Positions 1 through 20,314 of a DNA stretch of 64,000 bases are shown here, piece after piece; positions within the stretch are counted from its first letter, which is position 1; each line of letters begins with the position of its first letter. The DNA is taken from positions 1 through 64,000 of the forward strand of contig JAEWMQ010000059.1 in assembly GCA_023393125.1 (NCBI GenBank). Direction: 5' to 3'. A program made the translations under genes and the position numbers. Under the pieces are notes generated by a model. That model was not told the origin of the DNA. It did no database searches and was given only the letters and a program-made list of their open reading frames with translations. The DNA comes from Bacillota bacterium (GTDB lineage: Bacteria > Bacillota > Clostridia > Lachnospirales > Cellulosilyticaceae).

Positions 1-73
1 AGCGCGAGACGGGACTCGAACCCGCGACCCTCTCCTTGGCAAGGAGATGCTCTACCAACTGAGCCACTCGCGC
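1..73 (-). tRNA. tRNA-Gly (anticodon GCC)
   Basis: Reverse complement folds as a 73-nt cloverleaf: acceptor GCGCGAG/CTCGCGC, D-arm GCTC-AGTTGGTA-GAGC, anticodon arm TCTCC-TTGCCAA-GGAGA (GCC), T-arm GCGGG-TTCGAGT-CCCGT. CCA is not encoded and the feature may begin at the window edge. Confidence 0.85.
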
Positions 74-78
74 ATAAA

Positions 79-196
79 TCTGGCAACCACTTACTCTCCC
101 AGTCCGTCTCCAGACAAGTACCATCAGCCGCTTAGGTCTTAACCTACGTGTTCGGAACGGAAACGGGTGTTTCCCCTAAGCGCATCATCACCAGAA
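79..196 (-). rRNA. rrf: 5S ribosomal RNA
   Basis: Reverse complement reads TTCTGGTGATGATGCG...CACCCGTTTCCGTTCCGAACACGTAGGTTAAGACCTAAGCGGCTGATGGTACTTG...GGGAGAGTAAGTGGTTGCCAGA. This matches the Firmicutes 5S layout (CCGAACACG-GTTAAGC core, closing helix TTCTGGTG/..GCCAGA), ~118 nt. Confidence 0.85.
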
Positions 197-5023: not shown

Positions 5024-6673
5024 TTAGAGTCCTAATTTTTCTTTATTCTTATTCAGTATTTGTTGTTGTAATTCTACAAGTTTGCTATAGCCAAGTGCAT
5101 CACGTTCTGTAACATATTTATTAAAGATCTCATCAAACTCTGCATCTGTTTTGGCTAGTAACAATTTTGGAAGTGTTTCACCCCATAGTCTTCCTATTTT
5201 AAGACTAATTACTTCTTCTTCTGTACCAACTGATGGAGTAAGTCCTTCATATTGAGATAAGAATGTTGTATATGGGTAAGTCCATTCTTCTAATTGTTTA
5301 AGTGGTTCTTGTGGTCCTTCTGACCATTGAAGCTGCATAGCTAAGTCTTGAAGCATCCAGAATGTATCATCTGCACCATATTTTCTATCATAAGCTGTAC
5401 GATCTGTTTGAAGGAGTTCTTTTACTTCTGGCTTAACTACTGGCTTACCATCTACCATATCATAAGTTTCACCTTCTGGCCCTAAGAATACCATTTTTTG
5501 ACCATGTTCACTCATTAAATAGCTTAAGAACTCAATAGCACGGTCAGGTCTTTCACAGTTTTTAGAAATAAGTGTTACAGTCCATCCTGCAATACCACCG
5601 CCTTGTAGCACAGGATCATCTCCATTAGAATTTTTGGGTCCATCTACTGCTATATAGATGCTATTTGGATCATTGTTATAAAGGATTTTTTGTTCTGCTG
5701 CAATATCTGTTCTTTGATACATCATGGCAAAGTAACGACCTTGCGCTATTTTCTCCGCCATTTGTGAACGTTTATCAATGAAAATGTCATCAGCTAGTAA
5801 ACCTTCTCTACCTGCTTCATTAAATACTTTTAACCAATTAACGTAATCTGGATCTGTCATTCTATCATAGAGTTCACCATCTTTTTCATATGGAATAGCT
5901 AAAAAGTCTTGTAAGTATTTTTCAATTGTGTAGTTACCTGTTTCAGTAAATTCATCAAAACCAATTGGAATAAGTGGCTGTCCATTTACTTCTGGGAACA
6001 TTTCTTTTGCTTTTTTAAGAGCACCTAAGAAGCCTTCAGGCGTACTCATATCTGGACTACCAATGGCTTCATATATATCTTTTCTTACTAAGAAAGTTTG
6101 ATTTGAAGCAATGTTATCATACTTTTCATAGTCTTCAGGTGAGAATGATGAGTTTGGATAGCCATAGATATTACCATCTTCTTGTGTATACCATCCTAAA
6201 CGTGATTCATCAGCTACTTTAAAGAAATAAGGGTCATATTGCTCTGCAAGTTCATTGAGTGCATATACCATATCACTATCAATCATCTCAGCAATCTGAC
6301 CTTCCCACCAACCTAATGTTATAAGGTCTGGAAGTGTATCTGAAGCAATCATCGTATTAAGCTTTTCTGCTTCATTACCTGCTGGCACAATAAACTCTAC
6401 ATTAACACCTGTCTCTTCTGTAATTTTTTGAGAAGTTATATCTTCTCCCCATGGTGTTGTAAACCATGAGAAATTCATATACCATTGTAAATCCACTTTA
6501 TCATCACTATTTCTTTGCCAGCCTGGTTCATCTGCTGAAAGCTCAGTGCCTGTAGTTGTTGCTGGTACTTGTCCGCCTTTATCATCTGTTTTGGCTGAGC
6601 CACAACCTACAGCTGAAGTGACTAACATACAAGCCATAGTTGCTGCAAAAGTTCTTTTTAGTCTTTTATTCAT
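5024..6673 (-). CDS. Extracellular solute-binding lipoprotein of a carbohydrate ABC transporter (LplA-like, large SBP family 1)
   Basis: 549 aa. Lipoprotein signal with lipobox (…LVTSAVGCGS). Size and composition typical of LplA/YesO-like oligosaccharide-binding proteins. Upstream of two permease genes. Confidence 0.85.
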   Translation of the reverse strand: MNKRLKRTFAATMACMLVTSAVGCGSAKTDDKGGQVPATTTGTELSADEPGWQRNSDDKVDLQWYMNFSWFTTPWGEDITSQKITEETGVNVEFIVPAGNEAEKLNTMIASDTLPDLITLGWWEGQIAEMIDSDMVYALNELAEQYDPYFFKVADESRLGWYTQEDGNIYGYPNSSFSPEDYEKYDNIASNQTFLVRKDIYEAIGSPDMSTPEGFLGALKKAKEMFPEVNGQPLIPIGFDEFTETGNYTIEKYLQDFLAIPYEKDGELYDRMTDPDYVNWLKVFNEAGREGLLADDIFIDKRSQMAEKIAQGRYFAMMYQRTDIAAEQKILYNNDPNSIYIAVDGPKNSNGDDPVLQGGGIAGWTVTLISKNCERPDRAIEFLSYLMSEHGQKMVFLGPEGETYDMVDGKPVVKPEVKELLQTDRTAYDRKYGADDTFWMLQDLAMQLQWSEGPQEPLKQLEEWTYPYTTFLSQYEGLTPSVGTEEEVISLKIGRLWGETLPKLLLAKTDAEFDEIFNKYVTERDALGYSKLVELQQQILNKNKEKLGL

Positions 6674-16191: not shown

Positions 16192-17400
16192 ATGAAATAC
16201 CATTATAAACACACCATGTATGCCTCTTTTATTGGATATATTGTGCAAGCTATCATCAATAACTTTATACCTTTATTATTTTTAACTTTTCAAGCACTAT
16301 ATGATATACCCATTTCTAAAATCACTTTTTTAGTGACCTTCAATTTTGGAATACAATTAATAGTCGATTTTTTATCAGCAGGATTTATAGATAAAATCGG
16401 CTACAAGGCTTCCGTGATTATTGCCCATATTTTTTCAGCCTTAGGGCTTATATCACTCACTCTATTACCTGAATTTTTTAGTGATCCTTTTATAGGATTA
16501 TTGATTTCAGTCATGATTTATGCTGTGGGTGGTGGCCTTATCGAAGTGCTTATAAGTCCTATTGTAGAAGCTTGTCCAACAGATAATAAAGAAGCTGCCA
16601 TGAGCCTATTACATTCTTTTTATTGTTGGGGCCACGTAGGTGTAGTCTTACTATCCACCTTATTCTTTGTTTTATTTGATACTTCAGCATGGAAGGTGCT
16701 TGCACTCCTATGGGCTATCATCCCTATACTCAATACATTTTTCTTCGCAAAGGTTCCTGTTTCTCATTTAATTGAAGATAACGAAAATGGACTCACCTTA
16801 AAAGAAATGTTTTCAAAAAAAATATTTTGGAATATGATGCTTTTAATGATATGCGCTGGAGCAAGTGAACAAGCTGTTAGCCAATGGGCTTCAACCTTTG
16901 CAGAAAAAGGACTTGAGGTAAATAAGTTTATTGGAGACTTAGCAGGCCCTATGTTCTTTGCCACTATGATGGGACTATCAAGAACCTTGTATGGTAAATG
17001 GGGTGGGAAAATCAATCTTGAAAAAATGATGCTATGTAGTGGTTTTCTTTGCTTTTTAAGTTATCTTATTATTTCACTTTCCCCACTGCCTATACTAAGC
17101 CTTCTAGGCTGTGGCTTATGTGGCTTAGCTGTTGGTATTTTATGGCCTGGAACATTTAGCATGTCTTCTGCAAAAATGAAGAGAGGCGGAACAGCTATGT
17201 TTGCTTTTCTAGCACTAGCAGGAGATGTGGGCTGCTCTATTGGACCAACTGTGGTAGGTACAGTATCTGGCGTATTTAATAATAACCTTAGGGTAGGTAT
17301 TATAACTGCTACTATCTTTCCTGTCTTACTGATTATAGGCGTAATCATCTGTATGCTTATAAGCAGGCAACAAATACATAACTCGTCATATAATGATTAA
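16192..17400 (+). CDS. MFS transporter (12 TM), co-transcribed with the AraC regulator
   Basis: 402 aa, hydrophobic throughout. Starts 23 nt after the AraC stop. Confidence 0.75.
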   Translation: MKYHYKHTMYASFIGYIVQAIINNFIPLLFLTFQALYDIPISKITFLVTFNFGIQLIVDFLSAGFIDKIGYKASVIIAHIFSALGLISLTLLPEFFSDPFIGLLISVMIYAVGGGLIEVLISPIVEACPTDNKEAAMSLLHSFYCWGHVGVVLLSTLFFVLFDTSAWKVLALLWAIIPILNTFFFAKVPVSHLIEDNENGLTLKEMFSKKIFWNMMLLMICAGASEQAVSQWASTFAEKGLEVNKFIGDLAGPMFFATMMGLSRTLYGKWGGKINLEKMMLCSGFLCFLSYLIISLSPLPILSLLGCGLCGLAVGILWPGTFSMSSAKMKRGGTAMFAFLALAGDVGCSIGPTVVGTVSGVFNNNLRVGIITATIFPVLLIIGVIICMLISRQQIHNSSYND

Positions 17401-17420
17401 CTTGGGGGATTTGGCTGCAT

Positions 17421-17439
17421 AAATTGAAATTTGTAGGGG
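17421..17439. repeat. Left copy of an 18-19-nt direct repeat bounding the ORF-free block
   Basis: aaattgaaatttgtagggg matches aaatttcaatttgtagag at 18153-18170 at 16/18 positions. Confidence 0.4.
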
Positions 17440-17460
17440 CGTTTATGAAAAAAGGCTTGT

Positions 17461-17662
17461 GGGAGGAAATGGAAGGGGCAGGCCTATCTTCCAGTGTTCC
17501 GGTTCAAATTTTTTGAGGCACTAGGCTTACTTATTTGGATGAACGCACGAAAACTCCCGCTGGTCAGACACTCGTGCTAAAACCCATCCAAAACGTTCGC
17601 CAAGTGCCTCTAAAAAATTCTCCCAAGTCACCCTTCCAGATAGCCCTCCCCCTTCCATTTCA
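17461..17662. ncRNA. Candidate structured RNA: ~200-nt extended imperfect hairpin (6S-RNA-like or MITE-like)
   Basis: Outer arm 17461-17494 pairs with 17633-17662 (13 bp perfect, ~23/29 overall). There is an internal asymmetric bubble. An inner 16-bp stem pairs aattttttgaggcact (17506-17521) with agtgcctctaaaaaatt (17603-17619). Further inner stems are tggatg/catcca and gcacga/tcgtgc. GC-rich relative to flanks and ORF-free. Confidence 0.3.
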
Positions 17663-17748
17663 GCCAAACGTTGCCTAGCACATAAACGTCTCTACAGTGA
17701 GATGCACAGTGAAAAACATTATGCCCTTCCAAACGTACAAGCATAATA

Positions 17749-18130
17749 ACATATAGAGCTTCTTAATAGTTTGTTGTGGTAAAGGAGTAGCCATGCCAGT
17801 AGGGGATTGATGTGTGGTTCTTTAGATATAAGCTTAGTAATTCTTAATGGAGGGTTTCTCAGGCATCCCTTCAGCCTTAATAACGTATAAAGTTTCCTAA
17901 TAGTGGGTTATTGTAAAATAGTAGCTATATAGGGAGGCTAGTGGACTTGCTGGAAGATGCCTTGGAGCAGAGCTTAGAAACTCTTAATGAAGTAATCCTT
18001 ATGGGTTTTAGGGTGAGTGTCCCCGCGTAGCGAGTTTTCACCCGTTCATATGGATTACGAATTTAGAGTTTCTTAGCGGAGTGAGACAGCAGCTGTAAGC
18101 AAGTACACTAGTCGGACTACATAGCGGTGC
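17749..18130. repeat. Five degenerate tandem repeats (period ~60-95 bp) sharing an AGYTT...CTTAATRG core
   Basis: Cores at 17756-17768 (agcttcttaatag), 17831-17850 (agcttagtaattcttaatgg), 17891-17903 (agtttcctaatag), 17971-17990 (agcttagaaactcttaatga) and 18065-18079 (agagtttcttagcgg). Each is followed by a G-rich segment. Confidence 0.4.
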
Positions 18131-18152
18131 TTTGCTTTACGCCTTATTATTC

Positions 18153-18170
18153 AAATTTCAATTTGTAGAG
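18153..18170. repeat. Right copy of the direct repeat bounding the ORF-free block
   Basis: aaatttcaatttgtagag. See the left copy at 17421-17439. Confidence 0.4.
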
Positions 18171-18214
18171 TTAAATCATTAAGTCTGAACTTAATATAAA
18201 TAGATTTCTTTAAA

Positions 18215-18255
18215 TAGTAGAACATCAAAAAACACATCCTAACTTAGCTAGGATG
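18215..18255. terminator. Bidirectional rho-independent terminator
   Basis: aaaaaaCACATCCTAACttaGCTAGGATGTGttttttg. A 10/11-bp stem flanked by A6 and T6. It terminates the minus-strand flotillin gene and any plus-strand transcript of the upstream block. Confidence 0.8.
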
Positions 18256-18265
18256 TGTTTTTTGA

Positions 18266-20314
18266 TTAGGCCTTTGTGGTGGCCACTTCTAATTGAGTAT
18301 TTTTAATTTCTGCTAAAATCTGTTCTTTAATGCGCTCCACTTCCTCAGATTCCTGGAAACTTTCATTGCCGTTTAAAGCAGTTAGCTTTTCACTCATTAA
18401 AAGCATAATGAGGGATTCAAAAGCATTAACGCCTTGGCCTTCTCCTCCTGCTTGAATAACTGTCTTAGGTACGATGTCAATCTTACCTTCTTTAACAGCT
18501 TTAGAGAATTCACTCATCACATCGTTAATAACCTTGTACTGTGGACCACCGTAAGCATTAACTTGTTCTCTAGCAGCTATAGCTTTTGAGATACCTACTC
18601 TTGCTTCTTTATCAGCTTCGGCTTCTGCTGTTACTTTTATTCTAAATGCTTCACCTTCTGATTGCTTTTTAATCTTATAAGAATCTGCTTCTGCTAGGCG
18701 CTGAATCTTTTCAGCATCTTGTTTAGCTTTCATCAGCTCAGCTTTACCTTGGTTTTCTTGAATTCTAATATTAATATCAGACTCAGTTAAGGTGGTTTGT
18801 TGTTTAGCTACTGCTTCTGCTTCTCTTAATTCCTTTTCTTTTTCTGCTGCTTTTTGTTGGGTTTCGTAGGTCTCTAATTGCTCTTTAGCAATTTGTCTGC
18901 TGCGAAGCTGTGTAAGAATGGTTTCTATATTAGAATCTGAAGTTGAGCTACCTGGTGTACCAATAAGTACTTCTTCTAACTCTAAATTATAATGCTCAAA
19001 GCGTTCTCTCATCTCCATAGCACTTTGGCTCTGGATTTCATTTCTTTGCTGCAAGAGTTCAATGAGTGTTTTCGTTTGCCCTATATTTTTAAAGTAAGCA
19101 GAAATCATAGGATCTAAGGTTTGATCAACTAGCATCTTTACATTCCCAAAACGTTGAATAACATAAGGTGCTTTTCGATAATCAATATGGAATACAACAG
19201 ATAGTGGTAAGGTTGGCTCAAAAGCATCCTTTGTGATAAGACTAACTTCTTTAAGGTTCTCATCATATTTGTGATTCCCTGTTTGATTAGAAATCCATTT
19301 TAAAATAACATTGGTTGTAGGCACTTTTACAATGCTTCCTGCATAGGTATTAAAAGCATATTTACCTGGCATTAATGGCTCGTTCCATACCCCCCTATAC
19401 CCTTTTCCAACAAGTTCTCCGTGCTTATAATCATTACCAGAAGAATCTTCACCCTTTGCGCCAGTATAAGAAACAACTACTCCTACAAAACCTACTTCAA
19501 TGATTACTTTAGGAATATATTCAATAGTTGCAAAAAGTCTATTAATAAAATAAGTACCATCTGCTAAAACCTGATATTGTCTACCTCTATAACCACCAGC
19601 CTTTAAAAAGGCATCAATATCTTGAAAATTGTTATGATAATGTGGATCAGTTGCTACATCTCCTACTGTTGGACAAATAATATTGCCACTACCTAAAGAT
19701 GGTCCATCGTGGACCGTTACAATACCAATTTCATCTTTTTCCCCTTGAATGACAACTGGCCTAAAACCATTTCTATTTTTAATAAGCTCTGACATTTGCA
19801 TAAGCGTGTCTTGCTCTGCCCTATTACCTATTTTTAAGCAGTGCGTCTTATCTTCAGTAATAATCACAAATTGTGCTAGGTTAAAAGCATAAGTTCCCTC
19901 ACGAATAATACCTTGTTGTGGTCCTTTTTGTCCTTTATTTTGTAAAAAGGCCCTTACATTTTGAAAATTATTAGACTCTTTAACAATCCTGCCTAAAGTT
20001 TGTGTAGCTTCTAAAGACTCTCCGTCTCTTGCAAATACATAAGCTATTTTTCCTTGTGGTACTGTTACAAGAGGTACCGTATGTACCTTGTAGAGAAGTG
20101 GTGATTTAAAATGAATACCTCCTCTTAAAAGGTCAGGCTGATAACCGGCTTCTCCATTTAAAGCAATGATTTGCTCCTTTAGAGAACCTTTAGGAGACCA
20201 CCATTTTTCAACGATTCCTACTCTATCATTAGGGATAATTTTAAAACCAACGAGCCAAAAGAATAAAATAACTGCTATGATTCCTACTCCGCAACCTACA
20301 ATTATACTAATCAT
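18266..20314 (-). CDS. Flotillin / SPFH (band-7) family membrane protein, YqiK/FloT-like, unusually long (682 aa)
   Basis: N-terminal TM helix (IIVGCGVGIIAVILFFWLVGF), then an SPFH domain. C-terminal Glu/Ala/Lys-rich coiled coil (…KAAEKEKELREAEAVAKQQ…AEAEADKEARV…) typical of flotillins. Confidence 0.8.
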   Translation of the reverse strand: MISIIVGCGVGIIAVILFFWLVGFKIIPNDRVGIVEKWWSPKGSLKEQIIALNGEAGYQPDLLRGGIHFKSPLLYKVHTVPLVTVPQGKIAYVFARDGESLEATQTLGRIVKESNNFQNVRAFLQNKGQKGPQQGIIREGTYAFNLAQFVIITEDKTHCLKIGNRAEQDTLMQMSELIKNRNGFRPVVIQGEKDEIGIVTVHDGPSLGSGNIICPTVGDVATDPHYHNNFQDIDAFLKAGGYRGRQYQVLADGTYFINRLFATIEYIPKVIIEVGFVGVVVSYTGAKGEDSSGNDYKHGELVGKGYRGVWNEPLMPGKYAFNTYAGSIVKVPTTNVILKWISNQTGNHKYDENLKEVSLITKDAFEPTLPLSVVFHIDYRKAPYVIQRFGNVKMLVDQTLDPMISAYFKNIGQTKTLIELLQQRNEIQSQSAMEMRERFEHYNLELEEVLIGTPGSSTSDSNIETILTQLRSRQIAKEQLETYETQQKAAEKEKELREAEAVAKQQTTLTESDINIRIQENQGKAELMKAKQDAEKIQRLAEADSYKIKKQSEGEAFRIKVTAEAEADKEARVGISKAIAAREQVNAYGGPQYKVINDVMSEFSKAVKEGKIDIVPKTVIQAGGEGQGVNAFESLIMLLMSEKLTALNGNESFQESEEVERIKEQILAEIKNTQLEVATTKA

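What the first reader, a model, noticed from the sequence alone, without database searches (positions are those of the whole stretch)
17461..17662. ~200-nt extended imperfect hairpin with central bubble (6S-RNA-like architecture; alternatively MITE-like TIR element or sORF leader)
- **Pairing:**
  - The outer arm 17461-17494 pairs with 17633-17662. The first 13 bp (gaaatggaagggg / ccccttccatttc) are perfect and about 23/29 bp pair overall.
  - An asymmetric internal loop follows (tgttccggttca vs ttctcccaagtcac).
  - A 16-bp inner stem pairs aattttttgaggcact with agtgcctctaaaaaatt.
  - Inner stems tggatg/catcca and gcacga/tcgtgc close on a ~22-nt apical loop.
- **Interpretation:** a closing stem, a large central bubble and a terminal stem in ~185-200 nt are the hallmarks of 6S (SsrS) RNA. 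An imperfect 29-bp terminal inverted repeat is equally compatible with a miniature inverted-repeat element.
- **Overlapping sORF:** a 23-codon sORF (17445-17516, MKKGLWEEMEGAGLSSSVPVQIF, preceded by GGGG) overlaps the 5' arm.
Basis: seen in the sequence. Interest (0 to 1): 0.6.

Follow-up and report, generated by a model that had tools for sequence, protein, structure and literature searches.

The report
Structured arm of a mobile repeat
The long hairpin is real, but it is not a 6S RNA: it is one of two matching folded arms of a 744-base non-coding "jumping" repeat, apparently of a previously undescribed family, inserted between two genes of a Cellulosilyticum-like gut/soil bacterium.

Summary
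The hairpin at 17461-17662 exists and folds far better than shuffles (z -6.3 on +, -7.4 on -). No Rfam family, 6S included, matches even at E<=10.

It is the left arm of a 744-nt non-coding element (17421-18164). Perfect 13-bp terminal inverted repeats (AAATTGAAATTTG / CAAATTTCAATTT) bound the element. A second, homologous ~200-nt hairpin (17924-18125) lies in inverted orientation, and a variable spacer separates the two.

Copies at 72-88% identity sit in unrelated contexts: three contigs of one MAG, another MAG, a metagenome contig, and Cellulosilyticum lentocellum. The same MFS-flotillin junction has no element in close relatives, and short-read contigs break inside it. So it is a dispersed, mobile, MITE-like repeat.

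The hairpin shape is kept by compensatory substitutions: 27 of 47 pairs, 96% of cells paired against 80% in shuffles. Some loop motifs are invariant. The strand whose 3' end points outward folds better in 13 of 13 arms, which points to a single-stranded (RNA or ssDNA) role.

The sORF is not conserved and shows no codon periodicity. The transposase, the target duplication and any transcription remain unknown.

Verdict: a new family of a known kind, with an unusually large and structured architecture.

The parts
17421..18164 (.). Whole non-coding repeat element (744 nt): TIR, hairpin arm 1, spacer, hairpin arm 2, TIR
   Evidence: Homology to copies in L004-L008, L013 and L015-L019 starts and stops at these ends, and the flanks are unrelated. 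GC is 0.425 against 0.339 for the window. No conserved ORF.
17421..17433 (+). Left terminal inverted repeat AAATTGAAATTTG
   Evidence: Perfect reverse complement of 18152-18164, and these are the only two matches in the window. The same 13-mer ends the copies in L006 and L007, with near-identical versions in L004, L008, L013, L015 and L018.
17432..17696 (-). Hairpin arm 1, full extent. The flagged finding (17461-17662) is its core. The - strand is the better-folding strand.
   Evidence: (I3, I4, I8).
17506..17618 (-). Conserved apical domain of arm 1, matched by covariance model R1. It carries the invariant motifs ATGGGTTTTAG, GAGTG...GAGTTTTC and CGTTCAT.
   Evidence: cmsearch 125.8 bits, E 6.5e-27, on this strand only.
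17697..17877 (.). Variable spacer. Positions 17744-17852 are a degenerate half-copy of the 5' leader and 5' arm of hairpin 2.
   Evidence: Direct repeats D1 (17744-17794 / 17878-17928, 78%) and D2 (17831-17852 / 17971-17992, 86%). The spacer aligns poorly or not at all between copies and ranges from about 170 to about 1040 nt.
17878..18152 (+). Hairpin arm 2 (core 17924-18125), homologous to arm 1 but in inverted orientation. The + strand is the better-folding strand.
   Evidence: Inverted repeats I1, I2, I7 and I14. Alignment of arm 1 (+) with arm 2 (-) is. The covariance-model match is at 17969-18081 (+), 112.6 bits.
18152..18164 (-). Right terminal inverted repeat CAAATTTCAATTT
   Evidence: Flanks of all copies diverge immediately after it.

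Best explanation
**What it is.** The hairpin is the left structured arm of a 744-nt non-coding, non-autonomous mobile repeat (17421-18164). The element inserted between the convergent MFS-transporter and flotillin genes of a Cellulosilyticum-like (Lachnospiraceae) chromosome.

**Anatomy.** 13-bp TIR, ~265-nt hairpin arm, variable spacer, ~275-nt homologous hairpin arm in inverted orientation, 13-bp TIR.

**Shown.**
- The element is multi-copy and dispersed.
- It is present or absent at orthologous sites.
- It has TIRs and no coding capacity.
- The hairpin fold is kept by compensatory substitutions, with invariant loop and bulge motifs.

**Inferred.**
- A transposase encoded elsewhere moves the element in trans.
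- The two arms are the cis-acting parts. They are recognised as folded single strands: the strand whose 3' end points to the element tip always folds best.
- At this locus a secondary effect follows. The MFS mRNA must now read into an extremely stable ~100-bp hairpin before it reaches the old shared terminator at 18224-18266. That could stabilise or end the transcript.
For: **Dispersal.** The whole composite recurs at 72-88% identity with unrelated flanks.
- Three contigs of MAG OH_CDB_233 (L004, L005, L007).
- MAG OH_SBrB_95 (L006) and metagenome contig L008.
- C. lentocellum-type genomes (L015-L019).

**Mobility.**
- The MFS-flotillin junction is only 64-140 nt with no element in L009 and L011. 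The flotillin-downstream site is also empty in L030, L031, L033 and L034, which carry a flavodoxin gene there instead. All six lack any hairpin match.
- L011 keeps the same terminator hairpin as window 18224-18266.
- Short-read contigs of the same genome end at 17448, 17958 and 18099.

**Termini.** The 13-bp TIRs are perfect, and homology between copies stops exactly there.

**Structure.**
- 27 of 47 pairs change on both sides, against 17.0 +/- 1.9 in shuffles.
- 96.2% of cells are paired, against 80.0% in shuffles and 39-49% with slid partners.
- The covariation score is 0.522 against 0.211.
- Two G-U pairs are near-invariant (10 of 10 and 9 of 10 arms).
- 38 cells are G-U only in the outward-3' orientation, against 4 in the other.
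- That strand folds 6-22 kcal/mol better in 13 of 13 arms.

**Non-coding.** No conserved ORF and no codon periodicity.

**No known RNA family.**
Against: - No target-site duplication could be established. Flanks are often TA-like but inconsistent, and the available empty sites are too diverged to place the junction.
- No autonomous partner with the same TIRs was found in the window, the fetched loci, plasmids, phages or viral contigs.
- The element is larger (744 nt) and more GC-rich than its genome. The MITE review PMC10969869 describes elements as typically under 500 bp and AT-rich.
- The 13 arms are not independent observations. The arm 1 / arm 2 split is one old duplication, so much of the covariation and all of the strand bias could be inherited from few events.
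- Template switching or intra-palindrome repair can keep arms complementary without selection (PMC8794818, listed; abstract only read).
- No expression data exist, and promoter and terminator scans are at chance level.
Confidence: 0.8

Rival explanations
1. The arms are genes for a functional structured RNA that rides on a mobile element. Examples would be a regulatory or antisense RNA, or a guide or scaffold RNA for an unknown recombinase or nuclease. It would be transcribed outward from the spacer, through the hairpin, towards the element tip.
For: - Strong covariation, invariant unpaired motifs (ATGGGTTTTAG, GAGTG..GAGTTTTC, CGTTCAT, CTGGAAG on both sides of the big internal loop) and conserved G-U pairs.
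- The better-folding strand always reads outward.
- In L006 the spacer carries two divergent promoter-like sites pointing into the two arms in that orientation.
- A 2-bp mini-helix in the apical loop covaries: GC-GTA-GC, CC-AAC-GG, CT-GAA-AG (read directly from the sequences).
Against: - The promoter-like sites are not conserved in the window, L007 or L008, and their number is within shuffle expectation.
- There is no terminator after the arms.
- No protein gene is consistently adjacent.
- No Rfam family matches.
- Strand bias and covariation are equally expected for a folded DNA strand.
Confidence: 0.15
2. The hairpin shape has no function. It is a selfish or decaying palindromic repeat whose arm complementarity is maintained mechanically, by template switching or repair within palindromes.
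For: - Palindromic repeats are common products of replication template switching (PMC8794818 abstract).
- The spacer is highly plastic, with an 800-nt insertion in L005, a half-copy duplication in the window and a one-armed derivative in L015. That indicates weak constraint on the whole.
- Loop variants are shared between arm 1 and arm 2 of different copies, which suggests sequence exchange between arms.
Against: - Mechanical homogenisation would erase bulges, internal loops and G-T mismatches. Here the same bulges and loops and two G-U positions are kept in arms that are only about 55-60% identical.
- The mismatch type is strongly one-sided (38 against 4 cells).
Confidence: 0.15
3. It is a 6S (SsrS) RNA gene.
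For: The only support is the gross shape: about 200 nt, long imperfect helix, internal loops.
Against: - No RF00013 or any other Rfam match, even at E<=10 in a 321-nt search.
- Two inverted paralogous copies lie 460 nt apart, with more copies elsewhere.
- It is absent from the same locus in close relatives.
Confidence: 0.01
4. It is a leader or small-protein gene: the 23-codon sORF at 17445-17516, or the 46-47-codon ORFs inside the hairpin.
For: ORFs exist in the window copy. A similar peptide string (..LKNTPKS.FQ.AL..) recurs in several copies.
Against: - The sORF start is absent in L004, L005 and L006 and truncated to 8 codons in L008.
- ORF ends differ between copies.
- Variable sites are evenly spread over codon positions: 20/20/20 and 20/19/19.
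- The recurrent peptide string is explained by nucleotide conservation of the stem.
Confidence: 0.02
5. It is a host-selected 3' UTR element, a terminator or mRNA stabiliser for the MFS and flotillin genes.
For: It lies between convergent genes. Arm 1 starts 32 nt after the MFS stop codon (61 nt for the flagged core at 17461). Stable hairpins can block 3' exonucleases (established knowledge).
Against: - There is no U-tract after either arm.
- Other copies lie upstream of genes or between co-directional genes.
- Relatives manage with the short bidirectional terminator alone.
Confidence: 0.05

Closest known systems
Bacterial MITEs that fold into long hairpins when transcribed: Correia/NEMIS of Neisseria, ERIC/IRU of enterobacteria, RUP and BOX of pneumococcus, QMITE2 of Coxiella (own knowledge plus review PMC10969869)
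   Same: - Non-coding, intergenic and multi-copy.
- Terminal inverted repeats within the 4-30 bp range.
- Presence or absence between strains.
- Very stable predicted stem-loops.
   Different: - 744 nt rather than under 500.
- More GC-rich than the genome rather than AT-rich.
- The hairpins are not formed by the two ends pairing with each other. Each end carries its own ~270-nt self-complementary arm with conserved bulges and loops.
- No target duplication could be shown, and no parent IS was identified.
bcr1-type interspersed repeats of the Bacillus cereus group (own knowledge; not checked in the library)
   Same: A Firmicute interspersed repeat family for which compensatory substitutions supporting a conserved fold have been reported, and which is thought to be mobile.
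   Different: bcr1 is about 155 nt with a single fold. This element is five times larger and has two inverted structured modules. No sequence relationship was tested.
REPIN/BIME doublets mobilised by RAYT transposases, and IS200/IS605-derived PATEs (own knowledge)
   Same: Mobility depends on hairpins recognised on a single DNA strand. No target duplication is made. That would fit the strand-biased folding and the lack of a clear duplication here.
   Different: Those hairpins are 20-40 nt and the elements have no terminal inverted repeats. No RAYT or TnpA gene was seen near any copy. The arms here are about 10 times longer.
6S RNA (Rfam RF00013)
   Same: Length and a rod-like imperfect helix.
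   Different: No model match, multi-copy, mobile, and absent from orthologous loci.

Membership tests
6S RNA (RF00013) | Significant match to the 6S covariance model | tested here: not met
   No hit at gathering score. No hit at E<=10 in 3 kb or in 321 nt.
6S RNA (RF00013) | Conserved housekeeping gene kept at the same locus in relatives | tested here: not met
   The orthologous intergenic region lacks it in L009, L011, L030, L031, L033 and L034. There are two copies in this region and further dispersed copies elsewhere.
6S RNA (RF00013) | Binds sigma-70/SigA RNA polymerase holoenzyme and accumulates in stationary phase | not testable with these tools
   Needs an experiment.
MITE (non-autonomous TIR transposon) | Terminal inverted repeats at the limits of homology | tested here: met
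   13/13-bp TIR at 17421-17433 / 18152-18164. Homology between copies ends there.
MITE (non-autonomous TIR transposon) | No coding capacity | tested here: met
   No ORF is conserved between copies. There is no codon periodicity. The L005 spacer has no ORF longer than 55 aa.
MITE (non-autonomous TIR transposon) | Multiple dispersed copies within a genome | tested here: met
   Three contigs of MAG OH_CDB_233 carry it with different neighbouring genes. Contig breaks fall inside the element in assemblies of the window's own genome. Total copy number per genome was not measured.
MITE (non-autonomous TIR transposon) | Insertion polymorphism (filled versus empty orthologous sites) | tested here: met
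   Filled in the window, L013 and L015-L019. Empty in L009, L011, L030, L031, L033 and L034.
MITE (non-autonomous TIR transposon) | Target-site duplication flanking the TIRs | tested here: inconclusive
   Flanking dinucleotides are TA in 5 of 8 readable junctions, otherwise CA, TG or GA. TA is self-complementary, so it cannot be told from a longer TIR. The empty sites are too diverged to place the junction.
MITE (non-autonomous TIR transposon) | Typical size under 500 bp and AT-rich composition (PMC10969869) | tested here: not met
   744 nt here, and 519 to about 1550 nt in other copies. GC is 0.425 against 0.339 for the window. These are typical rather than strictly defining features.
MITE (non-autonomous TIR transposon) | A related autonomous IS with the same ends that can supply transposase | tested here: inconclusive
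   None in the window, the loci, plasmids, phages or viral contigs. Whole genomes could not be searched again. The IS3, IS110 and DUF772-type IS seen nearby have unrelated ends.
IS200/IS605-derived PATE or REPIN | Asymmetric ends with short subterminal hairpins, no TIR, and an associated TnpA(Y1)/RAYT | tested here: not met
   The element is symmetric and has TIRs. The arms are about 270 nt. No such gene was seen next to any copy.
IS110 bridge RNA | Encoded in the non-coding end of an IS110/IS1111 element next to its DEDD recombinase gene | tested here: not met
   No recombinase gene lies in or beside the element in the window or in most copies. In L017 an IS110 is inserted into the element's TIR as a separate unit with its own ends. 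Model R1 finds no hairpin inside the IS.

The most novel reading that the evidence does not exclude
The two ~270-nt arms are not passive palindromes. They would be the active nucleic-acid component of an undescribed transposition system. In this reading the folded single strands (DNA or outward-read RNA), with invariant loops (ATGGGTTTTAG / GAGTTTTC / CGTTCAT / paired CTGGAAG motifs), recruit or guide a recombinase that moves the element without a classical target duplication. This would be a structure- or RNA-dependent mobile element class outside the IS200/IS605, IS110 and DDE-MITE schemes.
Probability: 0.1. Interest if true: 0.75.

Novelty: new member of a known kind. Interest (0 to 1): 0.4.

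Why it matters
- **Annotation.** It removes a false 6S candidate and defines an apparently undescribed repeat family of Cellulosilyticum and related Lachnospiraceae. The family breaks short-read assemblies and marks a hot spot where at least four different mobile elements insert.
- **Biology.** The family is unusual among bacterial interspersed repeats. Each end is a large hairpin with loop motifs and wobble pairs conserved through extensive compensatory change. This makes it a good test case for whether such repeats are recognised as folded single strands, and by what enzyme.
- **A ready-made natural example.** In C. lentocellum the repeat's terminal repeat is the landing site of an IS110-family element, and that element's non-coding end carries a matching guide-like sequence. 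This is a natural case of a programmable recombinase homing to a multi-copy 'safe' target.

Tried and rejected
- **Rfam.** Searches at gathering score and at E<=10 on 64 kb, 3 kb and 321 nt gave nothing for the hairpin.
- **BLASTN of the whole intergenic region** against plasmids and phages gave no match.
- **Viral-contig pattern scans**, run twice, gave no match.
- **Self-BLAST and covariance-model search of the window** found no third copy in the 64 kb.
- **Coding hypotheses** were rejected.
- **Internal promoters and terminators.** Consensus scans on four copies gave inconsistent, chance-level sites.
- **Autonomous partner.** The 800-nt insert in the L005 spacer has no ORF longer than 55 aa. 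The IS3 next to the L006 copy and the IS110 in L017 have unrelated ends.
- **Target-site duplication.** Attempts through empty sites (L009, L011, L012, L014, L030) failed because the intergenic DNA is too diverged.
- **ssoA-like single-strand origin.** A TAGCGA in the loop resembles the plasmid CS-6 motif (recalled from memory). I dropped this because the motif is not conserved between copies and the element is chromosomal and dispersed.
- **Integron attC, retron and group II intron readings** were dropped for lack of any associated gene or Rfam match.
I reached it indirectly through.

Full report
**1. The observation**

GAAATGGAAGGGG at 17466-17478 is perfectly complementary to 17649-17661. 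The minimum-energy fold of 17440-17680 contains the outer stem, the asymmetric internal loop, the ~16-bp A/U-rich stem, the TGGATG/CATCCA and GCACGA/TCGTGC stems and a 21-nt apical loop.

The fold is far better than chance:
- + strand: -89.5 kcal/mol against -58.2 +/- 5.0 for dinucleotide shuffles, z -6.3.
- - strand: -105.8 against -70.7 +/- 4.7, z -7.4.

The helix extends further out, to about 17432-17696 (I8).

**2. Surroundings**

The hairpin lies in an 865-nt gap between two convergent genes. The MFS transporter ends at 17400 on the + strand. The Band_7/flotillin gene ends at 18266 on the - strand. The gap is more GC-rich than the rest of the window. The element itself has GC 0.425 against 0.339 for the window.

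The gap holds a second ~200-nt hairpin (17924-18125) in the opposite orientation. Read on the opposite strand, it aligns with the first hairpin along its whole length. The two share unpaired motifs and differ by paired changes in the stems, for example GCACGA/TCGTGC against GGGTGA/TCACCC.

Perfect 13-bp inverted repeats, AAATTGAAATTTG at 17421-17433 and CAAATTTCAATTT at 18152-18164, bracket both hairpins. These are the only two matches in the window. Between the hairpins lies a spacer that includes a degenerate half-copy of the second hairpin's 5' side (D1 and D2).

**3. It is a dispersed repeat**

A pattern built from the motifs shared by the two hairpins found four loci in the species-representative genomes: three contigs of MAG 'Bacillota bacterium OH_CDB_233' and one of OH_SBrB_95. 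A related pattern found one metagenome contig.

BLAST shows that the whole composite recurs there at 72-88% identity, while the neighbouring genes are unrelated to the window and to each other. Homology between copies begins at the left 13-mer and ends at the right 13-mer, after which the flanks diverge at once.

Copies vary in the middle:
- about 170-240 nt of spacer in L006 and L008;
- an extra ~800 nt of AT-rich non-coding DNA in L005;
- a truncated copy with one arm in L004.

Short-read contigs of the same genome as the window stop at 17448, 17958 and 18099, as expected for a repeat. No further copy is present in the 64 kb, and none in plasmid, phage or viral collections.

**4. It is an insertion**

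The window's flotillin protein clusters at 90% identity or more with those of Cellulosilyticum lentocellum DSM 5427 and Cellulosilyticum spp. ST5 and WCF-2. The host is therefore a Cellulosilyticum-like Lachnospiraceae.

Relatives carrying MFS proteins 89-90% identical have the same convergent gene pair with only 140 nt (L009) or 64 nt (L011) between the genes. L011 retains the very terminator hairpin found at window 18224-18266. Strains WCF-2 and ST5 also lack the element downstream of flotillin.

C. lentocellum-type genomes carry a copy there, in several forms:
- L018 has the arm-1 type of hairpin at both ends (5152-5898).
- L015, L016 and L019 carry a 519-nt one-armed derivative.
- L013 has an arm-1-type leader joined to an arm-2-type hairpin.

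The element is therefore gained, lost and rearranged on a short evolutionary scale.

I could not establish a target duplication. The dinucleotides abutting the termini are TA in 5 of 8 readable junctions, which cannot be told apart from a two-base-longer inverted repeat. The empty sites are too diverged to place the junction.

**5. The fold is conserved, not the sequence**

I aligned ten arms, five of each type, all oriented so that the 3' end points to the element tip. RNAalifold predicts 47 pairs, of which 27 show changes on both sides that keep pairing. Counting on that structure gives:

| Measure | Observed | Shuffles | Slid partners |
|---|---|---|---|
| Cells forming standard pairs | 96.2% | 80.0 +/- 1.2% | 39-49% |
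| Pairs with changes on both sides | 27 | 17.0 +/- 1.9 (0 of 500 reach 27) | - |
| Covariation score | 0.522 | 0.211 | - |

Much of this reflects the single old split between the two arm types. Even so, the apical 7-bp stem also differs within a type: GCACGA, GCCTGA and GTGCGA each have matching partners.

Several unpaired stretches are invariant or nearly so in all arms: ATGGGTTTTAG, GAGTG, GAGTTTTC, CGTTCAT, and CTGGAAG on both sides of the large internal loop. Two G-U pairs are kept in 10 of 10 and 9 of 10 arms.

A 2-bp mini-helix in the apical loop also covaries: GC-GTA-GC, CC-AAC-GG, CT-GAA-AG. I read this directly from the sequences printed.

**6. Strand asymmetry**

In all 13 arms examined, the strand whose 3' end points outward folds 6-22 kcal/mol better than its complement. 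For arm 1 in the window that is the - strand, and for arm 2 the + strand.

Within the consensus helices, 38 cells are G-U only in that orientation, against 4 in the other. A covariance model of the 113-nt apical domain matches only that strand at high score.

This argues that the structure matters on a single strand, either RNA or single-stranded DNA. A mere double-stranded palindrome would not show it. Because the arms share ancestry, this counts as few independent observations.

**7. What it is not**

- **Not 6S RNA or any Rfam family**.
- **Not coding.** The 23-codon sORF loses its ATG in L004, L005 and L006 and is cut to 8 codons in L008. ORFs inside the hairpin end at different places in different copies. 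Variable sites fall 20/20/20 and 20/19/19 over codon positions.
- **Not a classical terminator.** No U-tract follows either arm.
- **No consistent internal promoter**. L006 does have two divergent promoter-like sites in the spacer, pointing into the arms.

**8. Best explanation**

The flagged hairpin is the left structured arm of a non-autonomous, MITE-like mobile repeat.

Shown:
- terminal inverted repeats;
- lack of coding capacity;
- multiple dispersed copies;
- filled and empty orthologous sites;
- a fold conserved by compensation.

Inferred:
- The element is moved in trans by an enzyme encoded elsewhere.
- The arms are the cis-acting parts, recognised as folded single strands.
- At this locus the MFS transcript must run into the arm-1 hairpin before reaching the old bidirectional terminator.

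Compared with the usual description of prokaryotic MITEs (PMC10969869: typically under 500 bp, TIRs of 4-30 bp, AT-rich, direct repeats that fade with age), this family is larger and GC-enriched. Each end is also its own long hairpin, rather than one hairpin formed by the two ends. I found no paper describing it; the two searches were general, and the second returned nothing specific to Cellulosilyticum repeats.

**9. Rivals**

- **A real RNA gene family carried on the element.** This remains possible at about 0.15. It needs expression data.
- **Purely mechanical maintenance of a palindrome.** This is made less likely by the conserved bulges, loops and one-sided wobble pairs.

**10. Seen on the way**

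In the C. lentocellum type strain, an IS110-family element (transposase with PF01548 and PF02371) is inserted exactly inside the repeat's left terminal repeat, at AAATTGAAATT^TGTC. An 83%-identical IS in other Firmicutes sits in CAAATTCAAGTT^TGTCTAAC sites that are not in this repeat.

The non-coding left end of the IS contains a stretch that copies the left half of its own target and changes with it...TTTGAAATTGGGACA against ...TTTCAAGTTGGGACA. A second stretch copies the IS right end in the same way.

From my own knowledge of IS110/IS621 bridge RNAs, these look like target and donor guides. Rfam has no model that matches there.

In different strains the same intergenic site also holds an IS3 element or a DUF772-type IS.

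Noticed in passing
L017 5163-6713 (C. lentocellum DSM 5427, CP002582.1), compared with L015 5152-5172 and L020-L029: An IS110-family element is inserted precisely inside the repeat's 13-bp terminal repeat (AAATTGAAATT^TGTC). Its non-coding left end carries guide-like stretches that copy the target's left half and the IS right end. These stretches covary with both in an 83%-identical relative that targets CAAATTCAAGTT^TGTC. This is consistent with bridge-RNA-guided homing to this repeat.
   Followed up: partly
Intergenic site downstream of the flotillin gene: window 17401-18265; L012 3006-3265; L010 3876-3947; L032 4556-6485; L017: The same site holds four different mobile elements in different strains: this repeat, an IS110, an IS3 (OrfA/OrfB), and an IS whose transposase starts MKDIVKQQKQYTELRGDYQLPLPIDFETAVAPDDSVRLLSH. 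It is empty in others. This is an insertion hot spot next to a bidirectional terminator.
   Followed up: partly
window 18224-18266: A 21-bp near-perfect inverted repeat (ATCAAAAAACACATCCTAACT / AGCTAGGATGTGTTTTTTGAT) abuts the flotillin stop codon. It is conserved in L011, where it sits 25 nt from the MFS stop. It is probably the original bidirectional terminator of both genes.
   Followed up: partly
window 17744-17852: The spacer contains a degenerate half-copy of the leader and 5' arm of hairpin 2 (78-86% identity to 17878-17992). This points to an internal partial duplication specific to this copy.
   Followed up: partly
L005 2204-2999: One copy of the repeat has about 800 nt of AT-rich DNA inserted in its spacer, with no ORF longer than 55 aa. 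Its origin is unknown.
   Followed up: partly
Apical loops of all arms (window 17552-17573 and 18015-18036; one search list): Two loop 'alleles' (GAGCGTAGCGAG and GACCAACGGGAG) are each found in both arm types and in different genomes. That suggests sequence exchange between arms or copies. The central 2-bp mini-helix covaries.
   Followed up: partly
L013 1776-1859: At the same site as in the window, this relative has the left terminal repeat and an arm-1-type leader, followed directly by an arm-2-type hairpin sequence. The arms therefore behave as exchangeable modules. The contig ends there.
   Followed up: no
L006 355-1994: An IS3-family element (225-aa and 321-aa ORFs) lies about 350 nt from the repeat copy in MAG OH_SBrB_95. 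The same pair of ORF sizes appears in L032 at the flotillin site.
   Followed up: no
window 1-195 (- strand): A tRNA (1-73) and a 5S rRNA (78-195) mark the end of an rRNA operon at the window edge.
   Followed up: no
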